From: Flectonema sp. DT1601
Taxonomy: Eukaryota
Reading direction: 5' to 3'
Length of the DNA: 64,000 bases
Assembly: GCA_964019425.1 (NCBI GenBank)
Contig: OZ025781.1
Coordinates: forward strand, 930,001 to 994,000
The notes beneath the pieces were generated by a model. That model was not told the origin of the DNA. It worked only from the letters and a program-made list of their open reading frames with translations, and made no database searches. Both the position numbers and the translations under genes were made by a program. Shown here piece by piece: positions 1 through 62,951 of this stretch; the first letter of the stretch is position 1, and every line of letters begins with the position of its first letter.

Positions 1-1256
1 CTGTTTGTTCTCTTGAGGGAACTGAACACAGCCCGGGCTTCTTCCTGCGAGAAAGGACTACACTCCGGAGTTTCATAGTCACCAGGTTTTACCTTTGGAG
101 CTTCTGGCCTAGTACTGTCAGAGCCGCTTGGGAAGAAACGGCTTATAAGCGACGTCATTGGAGCTCGTGGTGTTGGAAGTGCCGTCTTATCACCCCTGAG
201 TTCCCGTATTTTTCTGTAGGTCCACGAGAAGCCCTTATCACAACCTTGGGAGGCTACTTGGCTGGGGGATAGAGGAGCTAGGATACGTTCCCTTCCCTTG
301 TGTCGAGGCTTGCACCACTTGTTGGGTAGCTTGGCGATTGCTACTTTTTCTACCGTATGGACAAAGTTGTTTGAGAGTTTCTTCAAGGATTTTATCTTTA
401 ATAGTCGTGTTGTGTGTGATTCCAATGTATCAGAAAAGGCTGTCCAGTGTGCATCTTGGAACTGATTGAGGAGCCATTTGCGGTGTGGTGGTGAGTTGCT
501 AAAGTTTGAGAAAGTCGTGATATCGAAGTCCGCTAAGATAGGTGTATGATCCGACATTAGTGCGTCAGGGTCATATTGGCAAACGCTCAGACATTTATGC
601 TGAGGAGAGTGTAAGACCAGATCGGGGGTTGTACCGTGTTTCGGAATCGTCGGTTTGAGCTGAACTAACTCCAATCCGTTGTCATTTATCCAGTCAAAGA
701 CCGTTGAGCCTGCTGATTTTGTAGGGACTTTCTGTGACCAGGATTCATGATGGGCGTTAAAGTCACCAAAAGCCATGTCACCTAGATCGTATGATGATGG
801 AAGGCGTGAAACACCGGGTGGAATATATATATTCTTAAAAGTTATGGAACCTATTGTTGAAGCGAGGCTGAATTCCAGCGCCTCAATGTCGGAGGATCCA
901 GATGATACGTCGTTGTTGTGAGAGATCTTTAAACCATTTCTGAAATACGTCAGTAGGCCACCACCCCGGCTCTTGGAGACTGTCTTCCTGTCTCTCCTAA
1001 TGTACGAGTACCCATCCATATGTAAAAGATCACTGTTGTTCTCATTCAGCCAGGTCTCCTGCAGGTTTATTATATCAGGGTTTGTTGCGTTAACGATGGA
1101 CTCTAAGGCTGCTCTAGTGTTAGTAAGCGACCTTAGATTCCAGGATAAAATTCTCAGAGGACCCGGGTTTTGTTCTATCCCCGATCGGATTAAGAGCTGC
1201 CTCGCGGTGACCGTCAGATGGAAATCCCTGCTGGGATGTGGTTGGGGATGTCGTTG
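1..1256 (-). CDS. LINE ORF2: 2A-like leader, APE endonuclease, linker and start of the RT region (partial)
   Basis: Manual translation shows no stop from 1256 to 1: LRILSWNLRSL..PDIINLQETWL..RRDR..RGGG..NIYIPP..GDFNAHH..TPDLV..SDHTPI (APE motifs), ending SPFSQEEARAVFSSLK (pre-RT motif). First ATG is at 1019, downstream of the QET motif. Not in the ORF track. Confidence 0.92.
1158..1256 (-). other. 2A-like (StopGo/ribosomal skipping) peptide
   Basis: QRHPQPHPSRDFHLTVTARQLLIRSGIEQNPG/P directly before the APE domain. Same position as the trypanosomatid L1Tc 2A (..LLLSGDIEQNPGP) and nearly the same motif, but without the Asp. Confidence 0.8.
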
Positions 1257-3299
1257 CTATTGCTTTGACATAGAACTCCGGTGAGGCGTCCTACCCCGTG
1301 ATCTGCTGGGGGTATTCGTTCTGTCCCCGTAGGGAGAGAAGGAGTCTTGTAGCTGCTTTGCCACCTCTGATTCCTGTCCCAGGACTGATTTAGACCTGAT
1401 TCTGTTCAGCATCGTCTTGTTGGATGCTTTCTTCGGAGGTGCCTTCGTGACTGGTGCTGTTGTGACTTCAGCAGTTGGAGGCTGTGCCGGCTTACCGTGC
1501 ACCGGAGGTTTCATGTTCTGAGGTGGCACTTCAGTTGTTTCCGCAAGAGGAGACCCTTCCGGCGATGAGGACTGTTGAAGAACAGTGTGTTCGATCGAGA
1601 GTTTCTGCTCGTGCATTTGGTTAAGCCGAGCTAACAACTCCGATATTCTTCGTGACAGGTTAGCCACTTCGTCGGTGAGTCGGGAGTTCTGTTCCTGCAT
1701 TTTAACTTGCTGTTTCAGAAGATCTTGGATGCGAGCGTCTCTGTCTTCTAATGACGCCTGTGTCCGTGCTGACTGGTCCTTCTGTTGTTGATCTTGACGA
1801 GCCATGAGATCCGAGGCCTGTTCTGTTAAGCCCGTCACTTTGTCGGTTAGGTGGCCGTTCTGGACCTGCATCTGTCGCTGTTGTTTGAGAAGTTCTCCGA
1901 TTCGAGTGTCCTTAGCGGAGTCGGATGGGGACGTAGTGTCAGTTGGGGTGCTGTTGTCCGGTGAAGGAGCAGAGTCATCTGGTGAGCTATCATCTATTGT
2001 TGAAGTAGGGAGCGATGGATATTCCGCTTCGTTACGTGGTGGCGGTTCTCGTTTGGACTCTCGGTTTATAGTCAGGAGGCCATGTCCCTTGCAGTGAACG
2101 GTGGAGAAGGTCGGTTCTTCTAGTGATTTCACTACAAAGAAACCTCTGCTACCCTTCTTCCTGTGGTGAGTCGCTGTGTCTACAATCCAACCCTGTCCAC
2201 CTAGAATCTTGATGAGGTCTGTAGTGCTGATCCTATGGAGAGAGGGACCTGTTATGAAGTAGCGGGTACCCGGTGTTGGAGGAGGCATGGCTAGTTGTCC
2301 CAGAGTCTTACGTGTATCTAGTTCCCTTCCCGGGTAAGTAACTAAACCAAGCTTCTTCGTTCCACGAAGAAGGATGACTGCCGCGTCGCAATAATCTGCA
2401 GCCTTGCGGGCAGTATTTAAGTCTGCTGTGTCCAGTCTGATCACGACTGTTTTCGGTAGGTCTTCTTGTATGTGTCTCGAAGCAGAGATAAAGAAGCCCT
2501 TGTGTTCCGCTGGAACGTGCGCTTGCAGGCGGTGAACTGCATCAGTAGGTATACGAAGGTTCACCGATGACACCTTCGGGGTGCGGACTTTAGATGCCCA
2601 TATCTGGTGACGGTCTATGGGAGAGAAAGAGTGGTTCTTCGCAAAGTCGTTGTAGATCTTCAAGGCCGCTGCAGATAGATCCGAGGTTGAGAGTGCTTCG
2701 GTCTCACCGTGTCCAGAGTGGTAGTTCAGTTGAACCACTCCGTTCGATACAGGATCCCCGCCCGAACGGACTAAAAGTTTGGCTATGGAGCCTGAGATTG
2801 TCGTTGCGTAGGCCTTGCGGACTACCGTCTTACCATCTAAGAGCAAAGGTACTTGAATAAGGGTACCTTTACCCGGGTCTTCAGTTGTAATTGCCGTTAA
2901 ACGGCCTGTGTTGCTTCGTCGTTGGAGTTGTGGTATCTGGTCTGTCGGTAACAGAAATACAGCCGAAGCCACTGCAGGGTTGTTGATGACTTCACAGCCA
3001 TCTTTGACCTTAAGGTCCCAATCCTCATCGCGGAGTTGAGCCTTCCCCCACGGTTTTGCTGGTTTTAGTTGTCTGGACACTACTGTTGCCCATGACGAGT
3101 TCTTCTTCGTATCTTCAGAACCCGTCTGCCTCGGTGTTTTCGACTTTGGTCTCGGTGATGGAGCCGTTCTCGGTGGAGCTGCCTTCGGTCTCGACACTGA
3201 TGGCGGCGGAGGTTGCTTGTTCCTGCCATCTTGCGTGTTAGCTACCATGCTTAGCAGGGCGCTTAACAAGGTCTTCAACTGGACCCTCTTCTTTTTCAT
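1257..3299 (-). CDS. LINE ORF1 protein (basic N-terminus, central globular region, duplicated coiled coil)
   Basis: 680-aa ORF upstream of ORF2. Two related heptad segments, DTRIGELLKQQRQMQVQNGHLTDKV and DARIQDLLKQQVKMQEQNSRLTDEV. Ends in TAG in frame with ORF2. Confidence 0.85.
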   Translation of the reverse strand: MKKKRVQLKTLLSALLSMVANTQDGRNKQPPPPSVSRPKAAPPRTAPSPRPKSKTPRQTGSEDTKKNSSWATVVSRQLKPAKPWGKAQLRDEDWDLKVKDGCEVINNPAVASAVFLLPTDQIPQLQRRSNTGRLTAITTEDPGKGTLIQVPLLLDGKTVVRKAYATTISGSIAKLLVRSGGDPVSNGVVQLNYHSGHGETEALSTSDLSAAALKIYNDFAKNHSFSPIDRHQIWASKVRTPKVSSVNLRIPTDAVHRLQAHVPAEHKGFFISASRHIQEDLPKTVVIRLDTADLNTARKAADYCDAAVILLRGTKKLGLVTYPGRELDTRKTLGQLAMPPPTPGTRYFITGPSLHRISTTDLIKILGGQGWIVDTATHHRKKGSRGFFVVKSLEEPTFSTVHCKGHGLLTINRESKREPPPRNEAEYPSLPTSTIDDSSPDDSAPSPDNSTPTDTTSPSDSAKDTRIGELLKQQRQMQVQNGHLTDKVTGLTEQASDLMARQDQQQKDQSARTQASLEDRDARIQDLLKQQVKMQEQNSRLTDEVANLSRRISELLARLNQMHEQKLSIEHTVLQQSSSPEGSPLAETTEVPPQNMKPPVHGKPAQPPTAEVTTAPVTKAPPKKASNKTMLNRIRSKSVLGQESEVAKQLQDSFSPYGDRTNTPSRSRGRTPHRSSMSKQ

Positions 3300-3370
3300 T
3301 GTTTTTTTGGAGATGTTACTGAGGGGAGACGCACCTTACTGCTCTTTCACCGTATTGTTTGGATCGAGAT

Positions 3371-3408
3371 CAATAAAGTACAGAAACTGTAGCTTTAGAA
3401 TCGTTGGT
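3371..3408 (-). other. Retroposed copy of the spliced-leader exon (38 of 39 nt)
   Basis: Minus strand reads ACCAACGATTCTAAAGCTACAGTTTCTGTACTTTATTG. It contains the euglenozoan SL core ACAGTTTCTGTACT.TATTG and a diplonemid-type 5' part. Followed by ATCTC rather than a GT donor, so it is not an SL RNA gene. Confidence 0.92.
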
Positions 3409-3545
3409 GGAGAAGTGATTGAACTTGAGGACAAGAAACGACTTCCAATAGAAGTGACGCTACAAAGTCCTGAAAGATCAAGAGCAGTGATTCGAGAACA
3501 GGAAGTCAAAAAATTATCTCTAATAGTAACAACACTACTAAGACC

Positions 3546-3569
3546 TGAAAGTTAGTTAGTTAGTGAAAG
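3546..3569 (-). mobile_element. Micro-insertion (CTAA)3 flanked by a 6-bp direct repeat CTTTCA
   Basis: Plus strand: tgaaag-ttagttagttag-tgaaag. Sister LRR units read GAY CTT TCA GGW CTT with no insert. It introduces an in-frame TAA. Confidence 0.7.
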
Positions 3570-3595
3570 GTCAAGAGCAGTGATTTGTGAACAGG

Positions 3596-4305
3596 AAAAA
3601 AAAAAAAAAAAATTAACCAGTGTTTAGGGGTTTGAATCCCATGGATCCCGTCGCTCAGGCGGTCCGGTGGAGAACCGGGTAGGGCACTGTGAACGAGTTG
3701 CGGTCCAGGTGGCGTCGGAAGGCCACCGCACCAACAGATTTGTTTCTTCGCACAACAGTAGCTTGGAGACCGTAAGAGACCCAAGGTGGTTCACAACCGC
3801 TCGAACAACCGCGTGTGAAGGAACAAGATTGAAAAGAAAAGAATATAAGAAAAGAAATGCCACACACAAAAAACGACGTAGTAAAGCAGAGAGGTAGGGG
3901 GAGGGATGGCCTCTTTCTCCACACATTGCATGGGAGCTCCCCGAGTAACTCGCGGGGCTGATACTGTTAATACATTTCAGGCGACCTGAACTTATAATCC
4001 CCCCATGCGTGAAAAGACTAAACGGGGGAAGTTTGAAGGAAATGGGGGTAAAGGGAAATCATGCCACTAAGGAAAAAATAAAAACCCGGTGGCCCCTGTG
4101 AGCTCTGGGTGCCTGAGTCTCCCGGGCCGGATCACCTGACCTTCTGCTATGTTGTCCTTTTTTTTTTTTTTAAAGGTTAGGCTACCGGAAAATAAAACGG
4201 GGGTAAAAGAATACACAGCAACAACAATACGTCAGCACTCTAGTTACACACAAGGTGCATCCAGGTAACACCACGAGGAGGCGCGCTATCCGAGTTTCGT
4301 TACCC
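3596..4305 (-). mobile_element. Non-autonomous, non-coding retroelement (SINE/SIDER-like, possibly composite) with a 5' HDV-like ribozyme
   Basis: About 710 bp of non-LRR sequence inside LRR coding sequence. Starts at the ribozyme G1, has an internal A14 (4171-4158) and several GC hairpins, and ends in T17 (minus strand). Flanks are TGTTCACGAATCACT and TGTTCACAAATCACT. Confidence 0.75.
4234..4305 (-). ncRNA. HDV-like self-cleaving ribozyme
   Basis: P1 GGGUAAC/GUUACCU (G1-U wobble), P2 AGCGC/GUGCU, P3 GCC/GGU, L3 UCCUCGU, P1.1 CC/GG, P4 AUGCAC-CUU-GUGUGU, J4/2 AACUAGA containing the candidate catalytic C. The full nested double pseudoknot can be built by hand. Confidence 0.85.
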
Positions 4306-5377
4306 AAGTGATTCGTGAACACTCATACAAGAAATAATCCTTAATAGCTACAACATTATGAAGACATGAAAGGTCAATAGTAATGATTTGTGAACAGGAA
4401 GTCAAAAAATAAAACCCAATAGTGGTAACACTACTAAGTCCTGAAAGATCAAGAGTAGTGATTCGTGTACAGGAAGACAAGAAAAAATCCTCAACAGTGG
4501 TGACACTTTTAAGACCTGAAAGGTTAAGGGAGGTGATTGAACTTGAGGACAAGAAATTACCTCCAATAGTAGTGACGCTACTAAGTTCTGAAAGATCAAG
4601 AGCAGTGATTTGAGAACATTTACGCAAGAAGCCTTGAGATATGACTGTGATGTCGGAATTCGAATTGCGGAAAGATATCTGTAATAATTTAGCATCTAAA
4701 GGCAGCAAATCAGTAAAAGTGAGGCAACCGTCTTCTGAGAATGTAGGGGTGTCCAGATATAATTTCCCGCTGTTGCTTCGAAGCCAACGAAGAAGCCTTT
4801 CCCGCATAGAATCATCAACAAACCAGCATTTACCGAACAAACGAAACCGCTTCTTCCACATTTCCAATTCGCTGTTTGTATCCACTCCGTGATCCGCAAG
4901 CCTCTCAGTTTCACAAAGAATGTCACCAGCAAACGAGAGTTCAACTTCCTCCAGATCGATATCCCACTCCTCAGCCGCCGCCGTCAACACGTCGCTCACA
5001 ATGGAATCAACACTAGCCGTGACTGACACCGCAGGGAGTCCCAAATCTGGGCAAGTTACAGAAATTTGCATTTTGTTGAGTAATCTGCCGAAAAGAAACG
5101 AAGGGGTAACTTGACACTGTGATTAAATATAAGAGGGTGTTAATTATCCAGAAAATGTGTGTCCAAACGTCAAATGATTCCTTCTTTCCTTTTATCGGTG
5201 TATTGTTGGGGTTGTTGTACTTCTCCCTCTCTGATAGCAGCCTTCCCCTGGTTGGAACAACAATAAACTTCTTAATACTAAAATAGGTAAGAGGGTTAAA
5301 CTGAAAAAAGTGACAGAAAATTGGTTGAAACCTTTGACAGTAACAACTTTAATTATTTGTAGTAGTAATTGATAGGC

Positions 5378-26607: not shown

Positions 26608-29060
26608 TTAACTTCCGCAGTTGAGGCACTCTTCAGGTTCTTTGCTGGTGTCGTTTTCGGAAGCAGCTTCAGCAGCCTTTAATTGGTCCTGATCAACAGT
26701 GAATTTGATAGCGTCAACTGCTGGACGAGTTCTCAAGTAGTATTGACCAGTCTTAAGTCCCTTGTTCCAGGCGTGGAAGTGCATCGAAGTCAGTTGTCCT
26801 CTTGTCGGACTCGCTAAAAACAAGTTCAACGACTGACTCTGATCGATGTAAATAGATCTGGCAGCCGCCATGTTAATTAAATCTTTTTGTTTAATTTCCC
26901 AAACAGTCTTGTAGAGTTCCTTAATCTTTGATGGAATGCTGGAGATGTCTTGAATCGATCCGTTGTAGGCGATGATCTGGTTTCTGATGCTCTCATTCCA
27001 TAAGTTAGCCTTTATCAAATCCTTTACAAGGAACTTGTTAACAATTGGGAACTCACCAGAGAGTACTCTGCGAAGATAAATGTTTGATGTGAATGGTTCA
27101 AAGCACTCGTTGTTTCCAAGAATCTGACTCGTTGACGCAGTTGGCATCGGTGCGACTAACAGAGAGTTGCGCATTCCAGTTTTGACAATCTTCTTTCTGA
27201 GATCATCCCAATCGTATCTTCCGGACTTTGGAGTTGCTTTCCAAAGATCGAATTGAAATTTCCCCTTCGACATTGGAGATCCTTCCCAAGTAGCATATGG
27301 ACCTTCAATTAATGCTGCCTCATATGATGCCTGTTGTTGGTGTTGTTGTTGTCTTTTGAAACATAAGAAAAGTAAAGAAACAGTTAAACACAAAAAGGAG
27401 AACAGCATACCTCACAAGCGGAGAAGTAAATAGTTTCGAAGATATCCTCATTGAGAGACTGTGCCTCTGGTGATGCGAATGGGAGTTCTAACTTGAGGAA
27501 GGTATCAGCAAGTCCTTGAATACCAATTCCAATTGGTCTGTGTCTCATGTTTGACTTCTTAGCTTCAGGAACTGGGTAGTAGTTGAGATCAATTACACTG
27601 TTCAGGTTTCTGGTTACGATCTTTGTAATATCACGAAGCTTGGAGTGGTCGAAGAACGCTCCCTTGTCACCCTGAGCGACAAACTTTGGAAGTGCGATGG
27701 AGGCCAAGTTACAAACAGCTACTTCATCAGGAGCAGTGTACTCAACAATTTCTGTACACAAGTTACTGCATTTAATAGTACCCAAATGCTGTTGGTTAGA
27801 CTTTGAGTTGCAAGCATCTTTGTACAGAAGGTACGGAGTTCCAGTTTCCTGCTGCGATTCGATGATGGCAATCCAAAGTTTTGGGGCGTCAACCTGCTCA
27901 ACGTAAAGTCCTTCCCTCTCGTACTTGCAGTACAGATCCTCAAATTCCTGACCCCAGCAGTCAGCCAATCCCTTTGCGGAGTTTGGGTCAAAGAGCGACC
28001 ACTTGCCGTTTGTGTGTACTCTCTTCATGAACAAGTCAGGAACCCAAAGTGCGTAGAACAAATCTCTGGCACGGTTTTCCTCCTTACCAGTGTTCTTACG
28101 GAGGTTCAAGAACTCAAAAACGTCTGCGTGCCATGGCTCGAGGTAGATAGCGAAGGAACCCTTTCTCTTACCACCTCCCTGGTCAACGTAACGAGCAGTG
28201 TCGTTAAAGACACGAAGCATAGGAACTAAACCGTTAGACTGTCCATTGGTACCTCTGATGTACGATCCGTTTGCTCGGACGTTGTGGACGTGAATACCAA
28301 TTCCACCAGCGGTTTTGGAGATCATGGCGCATGTTTTCAGGGACTCGAAGATGCCTTCAATAGAGTCGTCCTTCATGGCAACCAAGAAACAGGAAGACAT
28401 TTGAGGGTTTGGAGTTGCTGCATTAAACAGAGTTGGTGTCGCGTGAGTGAACCATCCCTCACTGAGCATGTTGTAGGTTTCAATAACTCGGTCAATGTTT
28501 TCGTACCAAATTCCAACAGAAACTCTCATCAACATGTGCTGTGGACGTTCAGCAACGTAACGCTCTCCCTTACTATTGGCGAGCTTCAACAGGTATGATC
28601 TCTCAAGAGTTTTGTAACCAAAGAATTCATAATTCAAGTCTCTCTTGTAGTTAACAGCGTCATTTAAACGATCAGCGTTGGCTATGACTACTTCATATGC
28701 GCGGTCACAGATAAGTGGAGCCTTTTCTCCGTTACGTGGATTGACAAACTCATACAAGTCAGTGATAACTTGTGAGAAGCATGAATTTGTAGTTTTGTGC
28801 AATGTTGACACAGCAAGTCTACCAGCCAATAAAGCGTAATCAGGATGTTTCATTGCCAAGTAAGCAGCAGATTGCGCTACCAACTCATCAATCTTAACTG
28901 AAGGCATATTAGTTTGACATCCTTTATAAACAGTGTCGACAAGGACTTGTGCTGATACTCTCATGGTGTCTAGACCGAAGGTAAAATGTTCGATTCTCTT
29001 TCGCAGCTTTTCTCCGGAGAATGCCTCCCGTCTTCCATCACGCTTAATCACCGTCGACAT
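26608..29060 (-). CDS. RRM1: Ribonucleoside-diphosphate reductase large subunit (class Ia), 2 exons
   Basis: ATP cone (VIKRDGRRE), [37 protein letters not shown]-terminal CLNCGS. Intron 27331-27410 (GTATGC..CAG) joins FSACE|ASYE. Confidence 0.97.
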
Positions 29061-29278: not shown

Positions 29279-30010
29279 CTACAAACACTCAAGGAACTGA
29301 ATGATTTCGTGATGATCTTCTTCTTTTGCGTAGTCTAAAGCAGTACACCCCTCGTGGTCTTTAGTTTTGTGGTCGGTGTGTAGACTAAGAAATCTGACAA
29401 CATTAAGATGACCATTTGAAGCCGCCCACATGAGTGGAGTGTCGCCGTCTTCATTTGGAACAGAGACATCAGCTGAACAGTTAAATAAAGCTTCGAGACA
29501 TTCTAAACTGCCAGCAGAGGCTGCCCACATCGAGGGAGTTTCATTGAGGAAACCACGAAAACAGATATCAGCACCAGAATTAATTAAAAGTCTCAAACAG
29601 TTTATGGAATTGGCTGACGCTGCGTGCATAAGCACCGAACTCCCACCAGCATCACATGCATTCGGATTAGCACCGCACTTCAATAACATTCGAACGGCTT
29701 CATCATTGTTATCCCTTACTAGAGTTACGTACTCAGTAGTATCTTGATGGCTACCTTCTAATCCATAGTAGCCGTCAATGTTTGTTTCTACCAGTAGTCT
29801 ATCTCCAGTCACAACTCCCATTTCAACTAAAATCATGTCATCTAACACTAATTGTGATTCAAATCTAATTTCTAAGCTGTCTGCTGGAGCTCCAGTCATT
29901 TCTTCAAGAGCTTCCTTCAACTGTCTAACTGTTGACTCTTGGCAAATGTTAAAGGTTAGCGCGCTGGTATCCTTCAGCTTGCAGTGGAGAGTTATGTCAC
30001 GTTTTACCAT
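29279..30010 (-). CDS. Ubiquitin-like domain + ankyrin repeat protein
   Basis: Ubl (TVRQLKEALEEMTG..LEIRFESQLV.DD), then ankyrin repeats (GDTPLMWAASNGHLNVVRFL). Confidence 0.88.
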   Translation of the reverse strand: MVKRDITLHCKLKDTSALTFNICQESTVRQLKEALEEMTGAPADSLEIRFESQLVLDDMILVEMGVVTGDRLLVETNIDGYYGLEGSHQDTTEYVTLVRDNNDEAVRMLLKCGANPNACDAGGSSVLMHAASANSINCLRLLINSGADICFRGFLNETPSMWAASAGSLECLEALFNCSADVSVPNEDGDTPLMWAASNGHLNVVRFLSLHTDHKTKDHEGCTALDYAKEEDHHEIIQFLECL

Positions 30011-62072: not shown

Positions 62073-62951
62073 TTAGTATCCATCACACATCCCTCCGGAA
62101 TCAGCTACTTCTTGGACGAATTGTTCGTCATTTTTCAAATAATTTGATAAATGATTCCAACATCTTGGGTTCCTAACTAAACATTTAATAATAAGTGATC
62201 TGAGTGTTGCATCTTCCAGAATTTCGCTCGTTGTAAAAACATTTACCACCGCAGGACATGAAGTGCAAGAGTTCAGTACAGCAGTGTGATCTGCCTTTAC
62301 TAAATGGGCAACGCAGTTGGTAGACCTGGCGCTTTTTAAATACGCAGTTAGGATGTAAGTATCGGTTGGAAAACTAGCGTGACAAAACGGTCTCCAGGCT
62401 TTCGTTGCTACGCTTTTCATGAATTTTCTATTCTTCTTGAGAGTGTCAGGAATAAGTTCCCAGTTATCTTCAAAACAATAACAAGCAGCTCTCAATGCAA
62501 CAATCTTATTGGATTTCATCTGCGGACTCAACAGGTTATATTGTCCTGATGATGTGATCGTATAACTAAATTCAACATCACATTTAAGGCGATCGCTAAT
62601 TCGTGAATAGTTTTCAGGACAGTTTCTGACTGCTATTATCGCAAACTGTTCGTTGTTTGCTGTAAAACTGTTCCAGTCAGATTCATGAACCGTTGGTGGA
62701 CATCTTCTTAAAACATCACTAACTATTACTTCACCATTAGGTTTTAAAAATATTTCATCATTTGGTCCTATTCCGACTGATGTCAGAATCGTATTCTTTT
62801 TTAGAACCAGTTGATCGAATTCAAGTTGCATCCTTATCGGATCCATGTCGAGCTCATCTGCAATTATTTCTATTAAACAATTACAAGTAGTCAATTCATT
62901 GATTTCTTTTAATGTACAATCACCATTTGGAAGAATCACTTGAACGTCCAT
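62073..62951 (-). CDS. Ubiquitin-like domain + DUF4116-like repeat protein
   Basis: Ubl (MDVQVILPNG..MQLEFD..L..VGI..NDEI), then S..LK.D/N.EF..A repeats. Confidence 0.7.
   Translation of the reverse strand: MDVQVILPNGDCTLKEINELTTCNCLIEIIADELDMDPIRMQLEFDQLVLKKNTILTSVGIGPNDEIFLKPNGEVIVSDVLRRCPPTVHESDWNSFTANNEQFAIIAVRNCPENYSRISDRLKCDVEFSYTITSSGQYNLLSPQMKSNKIVALRAACYCFEDNWELIPDTLKKNRKFMKSVATKAWRPFCHASFPTDTYILTAYLKSARSTNCVAHLVKADHTAVLNSCTSCPAVVNVFTTSEILEDATLRSLIIKCLVRNPRCWNHLSNYLKNDEQFVQEVADSGGMCDGY

What the first reader, a model, noticed from the sequence alone, without database searches (positions are those of the whole stretch)
1158..1262. Tandem recoding cassette in a LINE: leaky UAG followed by a 2A StopGo peptide couples ORF1 to ORF2
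Seen: ORF1 and ORF2 are in one frame, separated only by a TAG in the context CAA-TAG-CAA-CGA. It is followed by 32 sense codons ending LLIRSGIEQNPG and then P-LRILSWN, the first strand of the APE endonuclease. ORF2 has no AUG until 1019, past the QET motif. Known: CAA-UAG-CAR is the TMV-type readthrough context, and CAA-CGA fits the yeast CAR-NBA consensus. 2A peptides precede the APE domain of L1Tc/ingi, but those elements have no ORF1. Inference: rare readthrough sets a low ORF2:ORF1 ratio, and the 2A then releases an unfused ORF2p starting at Pro. I do not know of this combination being described in a LINE.
Basis: partly seen in the sequence, partly recalled or inferred. Interest (0 to 1): 0.92.

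Follow-up and report, generated by a model that had tools for sequence, protein, structure and literature searches.

The report
LINE with leaky stop plus 2A
A young jumping-gene (LINE) family, probably from a diplonemid, keeps its two genes in one reading frame, parted by a single stop codon that its sister copies share and followed by a conserved virus-like 2A 'skip' peptide, so its copying enzyme is likely made when ribosomes occasionally read through that stop and is then predicted to be released unfused at the 2A site.

Summary
On the minus strand ORF1 (680 aa) ends in CAA-TAG-CAA-CGA; 32 sense codons follow in frame to GIEQNPG|P and the first strand of an APE endonuclease; the next AUG lies 47 codons inside the domain. 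The stop is not a one-off lesion: 4 of 4 family ORF1 records that reach the C-terminus end there, a 51%-identical relative ends in the same column, and no fused protein was found. The 2A-like peptide is conserved in sister families and in the diplonemid Flectonema, and fits the expanded core motif. The copy starts with a spliced-leader-like exon, and the junction has no host-like splice-acceptor tract, so ORF2 is probably translated from the bicistronic RNA. Readthrough followed by StopGo is the best reading (about 0.55), but nothing here measures either step. The stop context could be read in this one copy only, it misses strict CAR-YYA, and a sister family has an AUG there, so L1-like reinitiation remains a real rival (about 0.27). 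Each part has precedent; I found no report of the tandem arrangement. New variant of a known kind.

The parts
3409..3609 (-). Flank at the element's 5' end: piece of a host leucine-rich-repeat gene, the probable insertion target
   Evidence: blastn to the LRR gene at 4361-4618, 91% over 3412-3500; similarity ends where the leader-like sequence begins
3371..3408 (-). 38-nt spliced-leader-like exon, first bases of the element; followed by ATCTCG, not by a GT donor
   Evidence: 16 of 17 bases match the prokinetoplastid SL piece printed in PMC7859406; only such site in the window at up to 4 mismatches
3300..3370 (-). 5' UTR, 71 nt
1260..3299 (-). ORF1, 680 aa: Pro/basic N-terminus, predicted ferredoxin/RRM-like alpha-beta region, Gln-rich coiled-coil-like region, basic tail ending SSMSKQ
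   Evidence: low-confidence model (mean pLDDT 52), best Z 8.2 then 6.8, generic ferredoxin-like folds including RRMs at Z about 6
1257..1259 (-). The single in-frame TAG between ORF1 and ORF2
   Evidence: same ORF1 end in 4 of 4 family records that reach it
1251..1262 (-). Stop context CAA-TAG-CAA-CGA: fits UAG-CAR-NBA with A at -1 and -2; does not fit CAR-YYA
   Evidence: motifs as stated in PMC3159437 and PMC4446449
1161..1256 (-). 32-codon leader with no AUG, GUG or UUG; Pro-rich start, then the conserved 2A-like peptide TVTARQLLIRSGIEQNPG; near-cognate CUG at 1217 and ACG at 1214
1158..1181 (-). 2A/StopGo core GIEQNPG|P, predicted skip between Gly 1163-1161 and Pro 1160-1158
   Evidence: core motif (D/G/C/N)(V/I)ExNPGP in PMC12846837
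3..1160 (-). ORF2 from the predicted N-terminal Pro: APE endonuclease, running off the window; sister copies continue into reverse transcriptase and RNase H
   Evidence: aligns to exonuclease III from its residue 2 (weak, E 0.043)
1017..1019 (-). First in-frame AUG of ORF2, residue 48 after the Pro, beyond the WN and QET motifs

Best explanation
This is the ORF1-ORF2 junction of a young APE-RT-RNase H LINE family in which ribosomes likely reach ORF2 by occasional readthrough of the single UAG that ends ORF1, and a conserved 2A-like peptide 32 codons later is predicted to release ORF2p as a separate protein starting at Pro. Shown: one frame, one stop, no AUG before the endonuclease motifs, the same ORF1 end in sister copies, conservation of the 2A-like peptide, a spliced-leader-like 5' end. 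Inferred: the template is one trans-spliced bicistronic mRNA; most ribosomes stop at the UAG and give ORF1p; a few per cent or fewer insert an amino acid, make ORF1p plus a 33-residue tail, skip the Gly-Pro bond and go on to make ORF2p in cis. The leaky stop would set the ratio and the 2A would keep a 700-residue ORF1 moiety off the endonuclease's first strand.
For: (1) Fixed stop: 4 of 5 family ORF1 records reach the C-terminus and all 4 end at SSMSKQ (6 contigs, one possibly the window's own); P0052 (51% identical) ends in the same column, P0053 one residue earlier. 5 of 15 listed ORF2 records (18 in the cluster) keep the N-terminal part and all 5 were called from AUG 1019, none from upstream. 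No fused protein among 733-2090 aa or 1191-3400 aa candidates (weak by the tool's own note). (2) The stretch before AUG 1019 must be translated: it holds the WN and QET motifs, and the leader aligns without gaps to sister family P0002 from codon 6 after the stop (22 of 35 identical), 13 of the last 19 residues identical. That similarity starts upstream of the near-cognate CUG and ACG (codons 14, 15). (3) The 2A-like peptide with upstream T(A/V)R..LL recurs in family 2, family 4 (GDVERNPGP) and Flectonema neradi (NVEVNPGP), which form one RT clade with this family (96/88). p12=G is as common as D in viral StopGo sites and L-rich motif 5 ends in (A/G/S)G (PMC12846837 sections 9, 10). (4) The context fits UAG-CAR-NBA and A at -1/-2; chance about 0.01 for the 3' hexamer. 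(5) TAG is an ordinary stop in the host (5 of 25 ORF ends). (6) One bicistronic RNA: leader-like exon before ORF1, and best 30-nt T fraction 0.23 at the junction against 0.53-0.97 upstream of 21 of 21 host ORFs examined.
Against: No measurement of readthrough or skipping. The nucleotide context is known from this one copy only. It misses strict CAR-YYA, and no 3' structure stands out (z 0.86 and -1.42). P0052 and P0053 have Lys, not Gln, before their stop, and their ORF2 partners are unknown. Family 2 has an internal Met (AUG) 29 codons before the skip site in 4 of 4 full-length records; Flectonema ORF2s are called from a Met 31-33 residues before it; 3 of 9 listed N-terminal family-4 records start 21 residues before it: in these relatives a short AUG-initiated leader plus 2A suffices. 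The similarity over leader codons 3-14 is only 3 of 12. Family 2 has His at the key Glu position (GVHPNPGP), and many LINE 2A-like sequences were weak or inactive in assays (PMC3708506). 0 of 38 distant 2A-APE loci with an upstream stop in view show this layout. In Tca2 a gag-stop-pol junction did not direct readthrough in reporters (PMC2194720 abstract). 2 of 25 host ORF ends also have CAA after the stop.
Confidence: 0.55

Rival explanations
1. Termination-reinitiation as in mammalian L1: ribosomes stop normally at the UAG, restart without an AUG (at CUG 1217, ACG 1214 or any codon), make a short leader, and the 2A trims it so that ORF2p always starts at Pro. The 2A would act as an adaptor that makes the ORF2p N-terminus independent of the entry point.
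For: Family 2 has an AUG at the place matching codon 4 after the window's stop, and Flectonema and part of family 4 have Met-headed 21-33 residue leaders. L1 ORF2 tolerates any sense codon in place of its AUG (reported in PMC1965478, and PMC5009743; primary paper not held). A CUG start would leave a 19-residue 2A, and strong conservation begins right there.
Against: CUG and ACG are in poor context (C at -3). Ungapped similarity to family 2 reaches upstream of them. Reinitiation does not need frame match or a leaky context, yet both are present. The yeast L1-like Zorro3 needs its AUG.
Confidence: 0.27
2. ORF2 is made from a separately trans-spliced, ORF2-only mRNA using an AG near 1322-1304.
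For: A 14-nt pyrimidine run precedes AGs at 1322, 1307 and 1304. Essentially all mRNAs of Diplonema papillatum carry an SL (PMC10161547).
Against: The run is C-rich and encodes the conserved SFSPY of ORF1; T fraction 0.23 against at least 0.53 at 21 of 21 host ORFs. The first AUG of such an RNA (1271) opens MSKQ-stop, so the TAG would still have to be passed. The copy itself carries the leader in front of ORF1.
Confidence: 0.07
3. The 2A-like motif is inactive or only lowers yield; rare readthrough gives an ORF1-ORF2 fusion, or ORF2p starts at AUG 1019 without a working endonuclease or is supplied by sister families.
For: Many retrotransposon 2A-like peptides lowered protein abundance rather than skipping cleanly (59% of ORF2p cases tested; bioRxiv 10.64898/2026.06.17.732966). 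Family 2 has Glu-to-His.
Against: The window's core is an exact match to the expanded motif, and p14=H variants were over 95% active in viral context. WN and QET upstream of 1019 are kept at about 50% divergence from families 2 and 3, and three 1305-aa intact ORF2 records exist.
Confidence: 0.08
4. The TAG is a nonsense mutation in a single ORF1-2A-ORF2 polyprotein.
For: This artefact is real in other families: locus L132 has TGA 35 codons before its 2A where the otherwise identical L188 has Cys. Fused ORF1-2A-ORF2 proteins are annotated in Cordylochernes. 3 of 18 ORF2 cluster members were not listed.
Against: Same end in 4 of 4 family records and in the same column in a 51%-identical relative; no fused protein found; family 3 is also called only from a Met after the WN motif in 4 of 4 full-length records.
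Confidence: 0.03

Closest known systems
L1Tc / Ingi and other APE-type LINEs with a 2A at the head of ORF2 (Odon et al. 2013, PMC3708506; read: abstract and parts 1-4 of 5 of the main text; supplement not seen)
   Same: 2A-like peptide directly before the APE domain; APE-RT-RNase H order as in Ingi (PMC12278014 passages); L1Tc core DIEQNPGP differs from this one by D versus G. CR1-26_BF, CR1-53_BF and CR1-1_LG also have an ORF1.
   Different: In those elements the 2A lies 40-80 aa into an ORF2, most lack ORF1, and the parts read mention no in-frame leaky stop. Here a 680-aa ORF1 is in frame, the leader has no AUG, and the 5' end is a spliced-leader-like exon, not Pr77.
Fused ORF1-2A-ORF2 proteins of Cordylochernes scorpioides (bioRxiv 10.64898/2026.06.17.732966; passages only, supplements closed)
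   Same: 2A between ORF1p and ORF2p domains in one frame.
   Different: Annotated as one open frame with no stop, so nothing sets a low ORF2:ORF1 ratio upstream of the 2A.
Paramecium non-LTR Group 3
   Same: ORF1 and ORF2 reportedly in one frame across a single stop, with readthrough proposed from sequence.
   Different: No 2A reported there as far as I know (unchecked); the predicted product would be a fusion.
Type I readthrough sites: tobamovirus UAG-CAA-UUA and yeast UAG-CAR-NBA (PMC3159437, PMC4446449, PMC2754532; passages)
   Same: UAG flanked by CAA codons, A at -1 and -2, CAR-NBA met, no 3' structure needed.
   Different: Second downstream codon is CGA, not YYA; viral products stay fused; no conservation data at DNA level here.
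Cardiovirus StopGo followed by -1 frameshift (PMC5009743; passages)
   Same: Two recoding events in close tandem, one setting a ratio and one separating products.
   Different: Order reversed (StopGo first), frameshift rather than readthrough, RNA virus rather than LINE.
Mammalian L1 and SART1 termination-reinitiation (PMC5972666, PMC1965478, PMC4072516; passages)
   Same: Bicistronic LINE RNA with low ORF2 output; L1 tolerates loss of the ORF2 AUG.
   Different: L1 has a 63-nt spacer and an AUG, SART1 an overlapping stop-start; neither has a 2A.

Membership tests
2A/StopGo peptides | Core (D/G/C/N)(V/I)ExNPGP | tested here: met
   GIEQNPGP at 1181-1158; motif from PMC12846837 section 9
2A/StopGo peptides | Older canonical GD(V/I)ExNPGP with Asp | tested here: not met
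   No Asp; one residue shorter than family 4's GDVERNPGP
2A/StopGo peptides | Suitable upstream context (Leu-rich hexapeptide, conserved) | tested here: inconclusive
   QLLIRS-G fits the text description of motif 5 and is conserved in relatives; the logos and SI were not seen
2A/StopGo peptides | Measured peptide-bond skipping | not testable with these tools
   Needs a reporter or proteomics
Type I (tobamovirus) readthrough | UAG-CAR-YYA | tested here: not met
   UAG-CAA-CGA; consensus
Yeast-type leaky context | UAG-CAR-NBA and adenines at -1, -2 | tested here: met
Programmed readthrough (any type) | Stop fixed across copies with downstream frame under coding constraint | tested here: met
   Protein-level only:
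Programmed readthrough (any type) | Nucleotide context conserved across divergent lineages | not testable with these tools
Programmed readthrough (any type) | 3' stimulatory RNA structure (types II and III) | tested here: not met
   z 0.86 for 1262-1140, z -1.42 for 1256-1020; single sequence, no covariation test
Ingi / L1Tc clade | APE, RT and RNase H in ORF2 with 2A before APE | tested here: met
   Pfam on P0014, P0002, P0003
Ingi / L1Tc clade | Single ORF, no ORF1 | tested here: not met
   680-aa ORF1 kept in copies and relatives
Ingi / L1Tc clade | 5' Pr77 promoter/ribozyme signature | tested here: inconclusive
   No Rfam match at gathering level in 1-4200 and the 5' end is SL-like, but no Pr77 reference was available for direct comparison
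Ingi / L1Tc clade | RT groups with named Ingi elements | not tested
   The tree held no named Ingi reference; it shows only a clade with Flectonema elements
L1/SART1-type reinitiation junction | AUG at or near the ORF1 stop | tested here: not met
   No AUG in any frame between 1270 and 1046; met in sister family 2
Copy retroposed from SL trans-spliced mRNA | SL exon at the 5' end, joined to element sequence without the SL intron | tested here: met

The most novel reading that the evidence does not exclude
A diplonemid LINE clade uses a two-step recoding cassette, a leaky UAG to set the dose and a 2A peptide to unfuse the product, to make ORF2p from a spliced-leader-capped bicistronic RNA, and the 2A frees sister families to switch between readthrough and AUG reinitiation without changing the ORF2p N-terminus.
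Probability: 0.5. Interest if true: 0.8.

Novelty: new variant of a known kind. Interest (0 to 1): 0.64.

Why it matters
How LINEs translate ORF2 from a bicistronic RNA is still open for most clades. This junction makes sharp, separable predictions (ORF1p, ORF1p plus a 33-residue tail, ORF2p starting PLRILSW), and sister families in the same assembly differ in whether they have an AUG there, which is a natural comparison of readthrough against reinitiation. It would be a natural counterpart of the stop-plus-StopGo reporters used in the laboratory, a compact way to co-express an unfused minor protein, and the first hint of programmed readthrough in diplonemids that I know of (recalled, not searched separately).

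Tried and rejected
No whole genome is held for the window. Only one copy lies in the window. Scans for relatives: viral contigs gave none; the 2A pattern there gave 113 loci, none with similarity to the element's proteins; genome contigs gave 1 distant locus, L205, not followed up; metagenome contigs gave 91 loci, of which 37 had no in-frame motif, 9 had the motif without an APE match and 45 were 2A-APE LINEs, all distant (24-34% identity among the 12 best rows printed); 7 of the 45 had no upstream stop in view and were left out of the count of 38. That pattern needed WN, so elements with FN or LN were missed. An alignment of 14 2A-APE proteins was too variable for the locus search. ESM Atlas on ORF1 residues 60-430 gave only scores under 0.8; Foldseek found nothing at E 0.001; the wide structural search gave only generic ferredoxin-like folds, so the RRM label is a lead. 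Rfam found nothing at gathering level. A reassigned genetic code was rejected: TAG ends 5 of 25 host ORFs (some of these ends may be intronic). The Pro-X-Pro-X-Pro run after the stop recalls luteovirus readthrough regions (recalled, not found in PMC3159437), but ORF1 has 2 such runs too, so I give it no weight. The bacterial promoter scan is irrelevant for this host. Papers not held: Heras 2006, Alisch 2006 and the yeast-context paper I tried by id. No printed diplonemid SL sequence was found.
Full report
What is there. The first 3.4 kb of the window hold, on the minus strand, the 5' half of a LINE. ORF1 runs from ATG 3299 to 1260 (680 aa), a TAG follows at 1259-1257, and the same frame stays open to the window's end. 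After the stop come 32 sense codons ending LLIRSGIEQNPG, then Pro at 1160 and LRILSWN, where Pfam's endonuclease profile begins. No AUG lies in any frame between 1270 and 1046, and the next in-frame one is 1019, residue 48 after the Pro. The WN and QET motifs lie before it; the Pro-started protein aligns with exonuclease III from that enzyme's residue 2 (weak match, E 0.043). That these motifs hold catalytic and metal-binding residues is established knowledge of the APE family. All 25 ATG-started ORFs of 200 aa or more listed beyond the element are on the same strand as it, as in euglenozoan gene clusters (PMC10161547, passages), and TAG ends 5 of them, so the code is standard.

Is the stop real? 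No genome or reads were available, so I used protein records. The ORF1 cluster has 5 members, all listed: 4 reach the C-terminus and all 4 end at SSMSKQ, on 6 contigs, one of which may be the window's own; the fifth is an N-terminal fragment. Two related ORF1s (60% and 59% identical over the core; 51% and 45% by BLAST) end in the same column or one residue earlier. The ORF2 cluster has 18 members, 15 listed: 5 keep the N-terminal part, are 96-100% identical to the window and were all called from AUG 1019. Searches for longer proteins found no fusion (weak evidence, representatives only). Start calls by a gene finder are indirect, and copies on different contigs could include haplotypes. Still, a control shows what a chance lesion looks like: in a distant family L132 has TGA 35 codons before its 2A where L188 has Cys. 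That pattern is not seen here.

Is the 2A real? GIEQNPGP lacks the Asp of the older consensus but is an exact match to (D/G/C/N)(V/I)ExNPGP; Gly at that position is as common as Asp in viral data (PMC12846837, abstract and sections 9, 10, 14). Chance in these 32 codons is about 2.5e-7. Family 2 (54% identical ORF2) has TVTARVNLLRSGVHPNPGP, 13 of the last 19 residues identical. Family 4 has TARELLLKAGDVERNPGP and Flectonema neradi TVRILLVTEGNVEVNPGP. These group in one RT clade (96/88; 44 rows, no named clade references), which with the leader sequence is my basis for calling the host a probable diplonemid. NPGP-like motifs precede the APE domain in 14 of the 150 nearest representatives. Activity is untested, and many LINE 2A-like peptides are weak (PMC3708506; bioRxiv 10.64898/2026.06.17.732966, passages).

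Which RNA? The element begins at 3408 with 38 bases that match a published euglenozoan spliced-leader piece at 16 of 17 positions (PMC7859406, passages), are followed by ATC rather than a donor GT, and start where similarity to a host LRR gene stops. It is the only such site in the window. I infer that this copy was reverse-transcribed from one trans-spliced RNA holding both ORFs. The junction has no host-like acceptor tract (best 30-nt T fraction 0.23 against 0.53-0.97 upstream of 21 of 21 host ORFs examined; 4 of the 25 were not included), and splicing at the AGs near 1322-1304 would still leave the TAG ahead of the 2A.

How do ribosomes get in? For readthrough: frame match, a single stop, no AUG, GUG or UUG in the leader, a context that fits UAG-CAR-NBA with adenines at -1 and -2 (PMC3159437 and PMC4446449, passages; chance about 0.01 for the hexamer), and ungapped similarity to family 2 from codon 6, upstream of the only good near-cognate starts. 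A 2A also has an obvious job only if something large is attached upstream. Against: the context is seen in one copy, misses CAR-YYA, has no notable 3' structure, the related ORF1s end in Lys, and 2 of 25 host ORF ends have CAA after the stop. Family 2 has an AUG 29 codons before the skip site in 4 of 4 full-length records; family 3 was called from a Met after WN in 4 of 4; family 4 is split, 3 records starting 21 residues before the site and 6 after WN, of 15 listed among 101. So entry seems to vary across the clade while the 2A stays. L1 shows that ORF2 can be reached without an AUG (PMC1965478 and PMC5009743, passages), and Tca2 shows that a suggestive junction need not read through (PMC2194720, abstract). 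I put readthrough plus StopGo at 0.55, AUG-independent reinitiation plus StopGo at 0.27, and the rest at 0.18.

How general? Among 91 metagenome loci from a 2A-plus-WN pattern, 45 were 2A-APE LINEs and 38 showed their upstream stop; 36 of 38 have an AUG between stop and 2A, 2 have CAR after the stop, 3 have a same-frame upstream ORF of 100 codons or more (one shown to be a nonsense allele, two likely), and 0 of 38 combine a long upstream ORF, a CAR context and no AUG. They are distant and mostly one group (2 clusters at 40% identity), so this says only that the layout is not general to 2A-bearing LINEs.

Comparison with what is known. Fused ORF1-2A-ORF2 is reported in Cordylochernes. In-frame-stop LINEs with proposed readthrough appear repeatedly in earlier findings of this scan, which cite Paramecium Group 3 (PMC5405496, not read by me). 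Tandem recoding is known in cardioviruses in the reverse order. I found no report of a leaky stop followed by a 2A in a LINE in searches, in the passages read, or in the scan's findings; subscription journals, Repbase and the supplements of PMC3708506, PMC12846837 and the bioRxiv preprint were not seen and could hold such a case. The element works like an L1Tc-type 2A combined with a yeast-type leaky stop; it is not filed as Ingi (it has an ORF1) nor as strict TMV type I.

Verdict. Observation confirmed; nonsense mutation and separate splicing unlikely; 2A well supported by conservation; readthrough plausible but resting on one context. New variant of a known kind, interest 0.64.

Noticed in passing
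window 3371-3408 (-): The LINE starts with a spliced-leader-like exon joined directly to its 5' UTR, at the edge of an LRR gene piece; it lies in the same direction as the host gene cluster, with a long T run about 200 bases upstream that could serve as a new splice-acceptor tract. Suggests promoter-less propagation through trans-spliced RNA. One copy only.
   Followed up: partly
proteins P0002/P0028/P0029/P0035, P0003, P0098/P0207, P0064/P0222: At least four LINE families apparently in one assembly, plus Flectonema elements, form one RT clade with different ORF2 heads: no AUG, AUG 29 codons before the skip site, or a called start 21 residues before it; 2A cores vary (G, D or N at p12; His for Glu in family 2).
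   Followed up: partly
L116, L129, L134, L148, L155, L156, L164, L172, L174, L186, L194, L195: In a distant group of marine 2A-APE LINEs, 12 of 38 have an in-frame stop directly followed by ATG (often TTAT-TAG-ATG) about 100 codons before the 2A, ahead of a hydrophobic leader; this could be a splice acceptor or a stop-start signal.
   Followed up: no
L132 versus L188: Identical 2A leaders except TGA versus Cys 35 codons before the skip site: a sporadic nonsense allele that mimics the layout in question.
   Followed up: yes
window 3336-3609 and 4286-5071 (-): Ubiquitin-like plus BspA-type LRR gene, with a broken LRR piece next to the element; other ubiquitin-like N-termini seem present in ORFs at 29279-30010 and 62073-62951 (by eye).
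   Followed up: no
window 56161 and 57618 (-): Two host ORF ends have CAA right after the stop (TAG-CAA-AGA, TAA-CAA-AAC); they may be intron-truncated ORFs.
   Followed up: no
window 26608-29060 (-): What looks like a ribonucleotide reductase large subunit gene in two overlapping ORFs, probably split by an intron (by eye).
   Followed up: no
L205: An APE-like match on a 4.7 kb contig in a bacterial metagenome-assembled genome, probably eukaryotic contamination.
   Followed up: no
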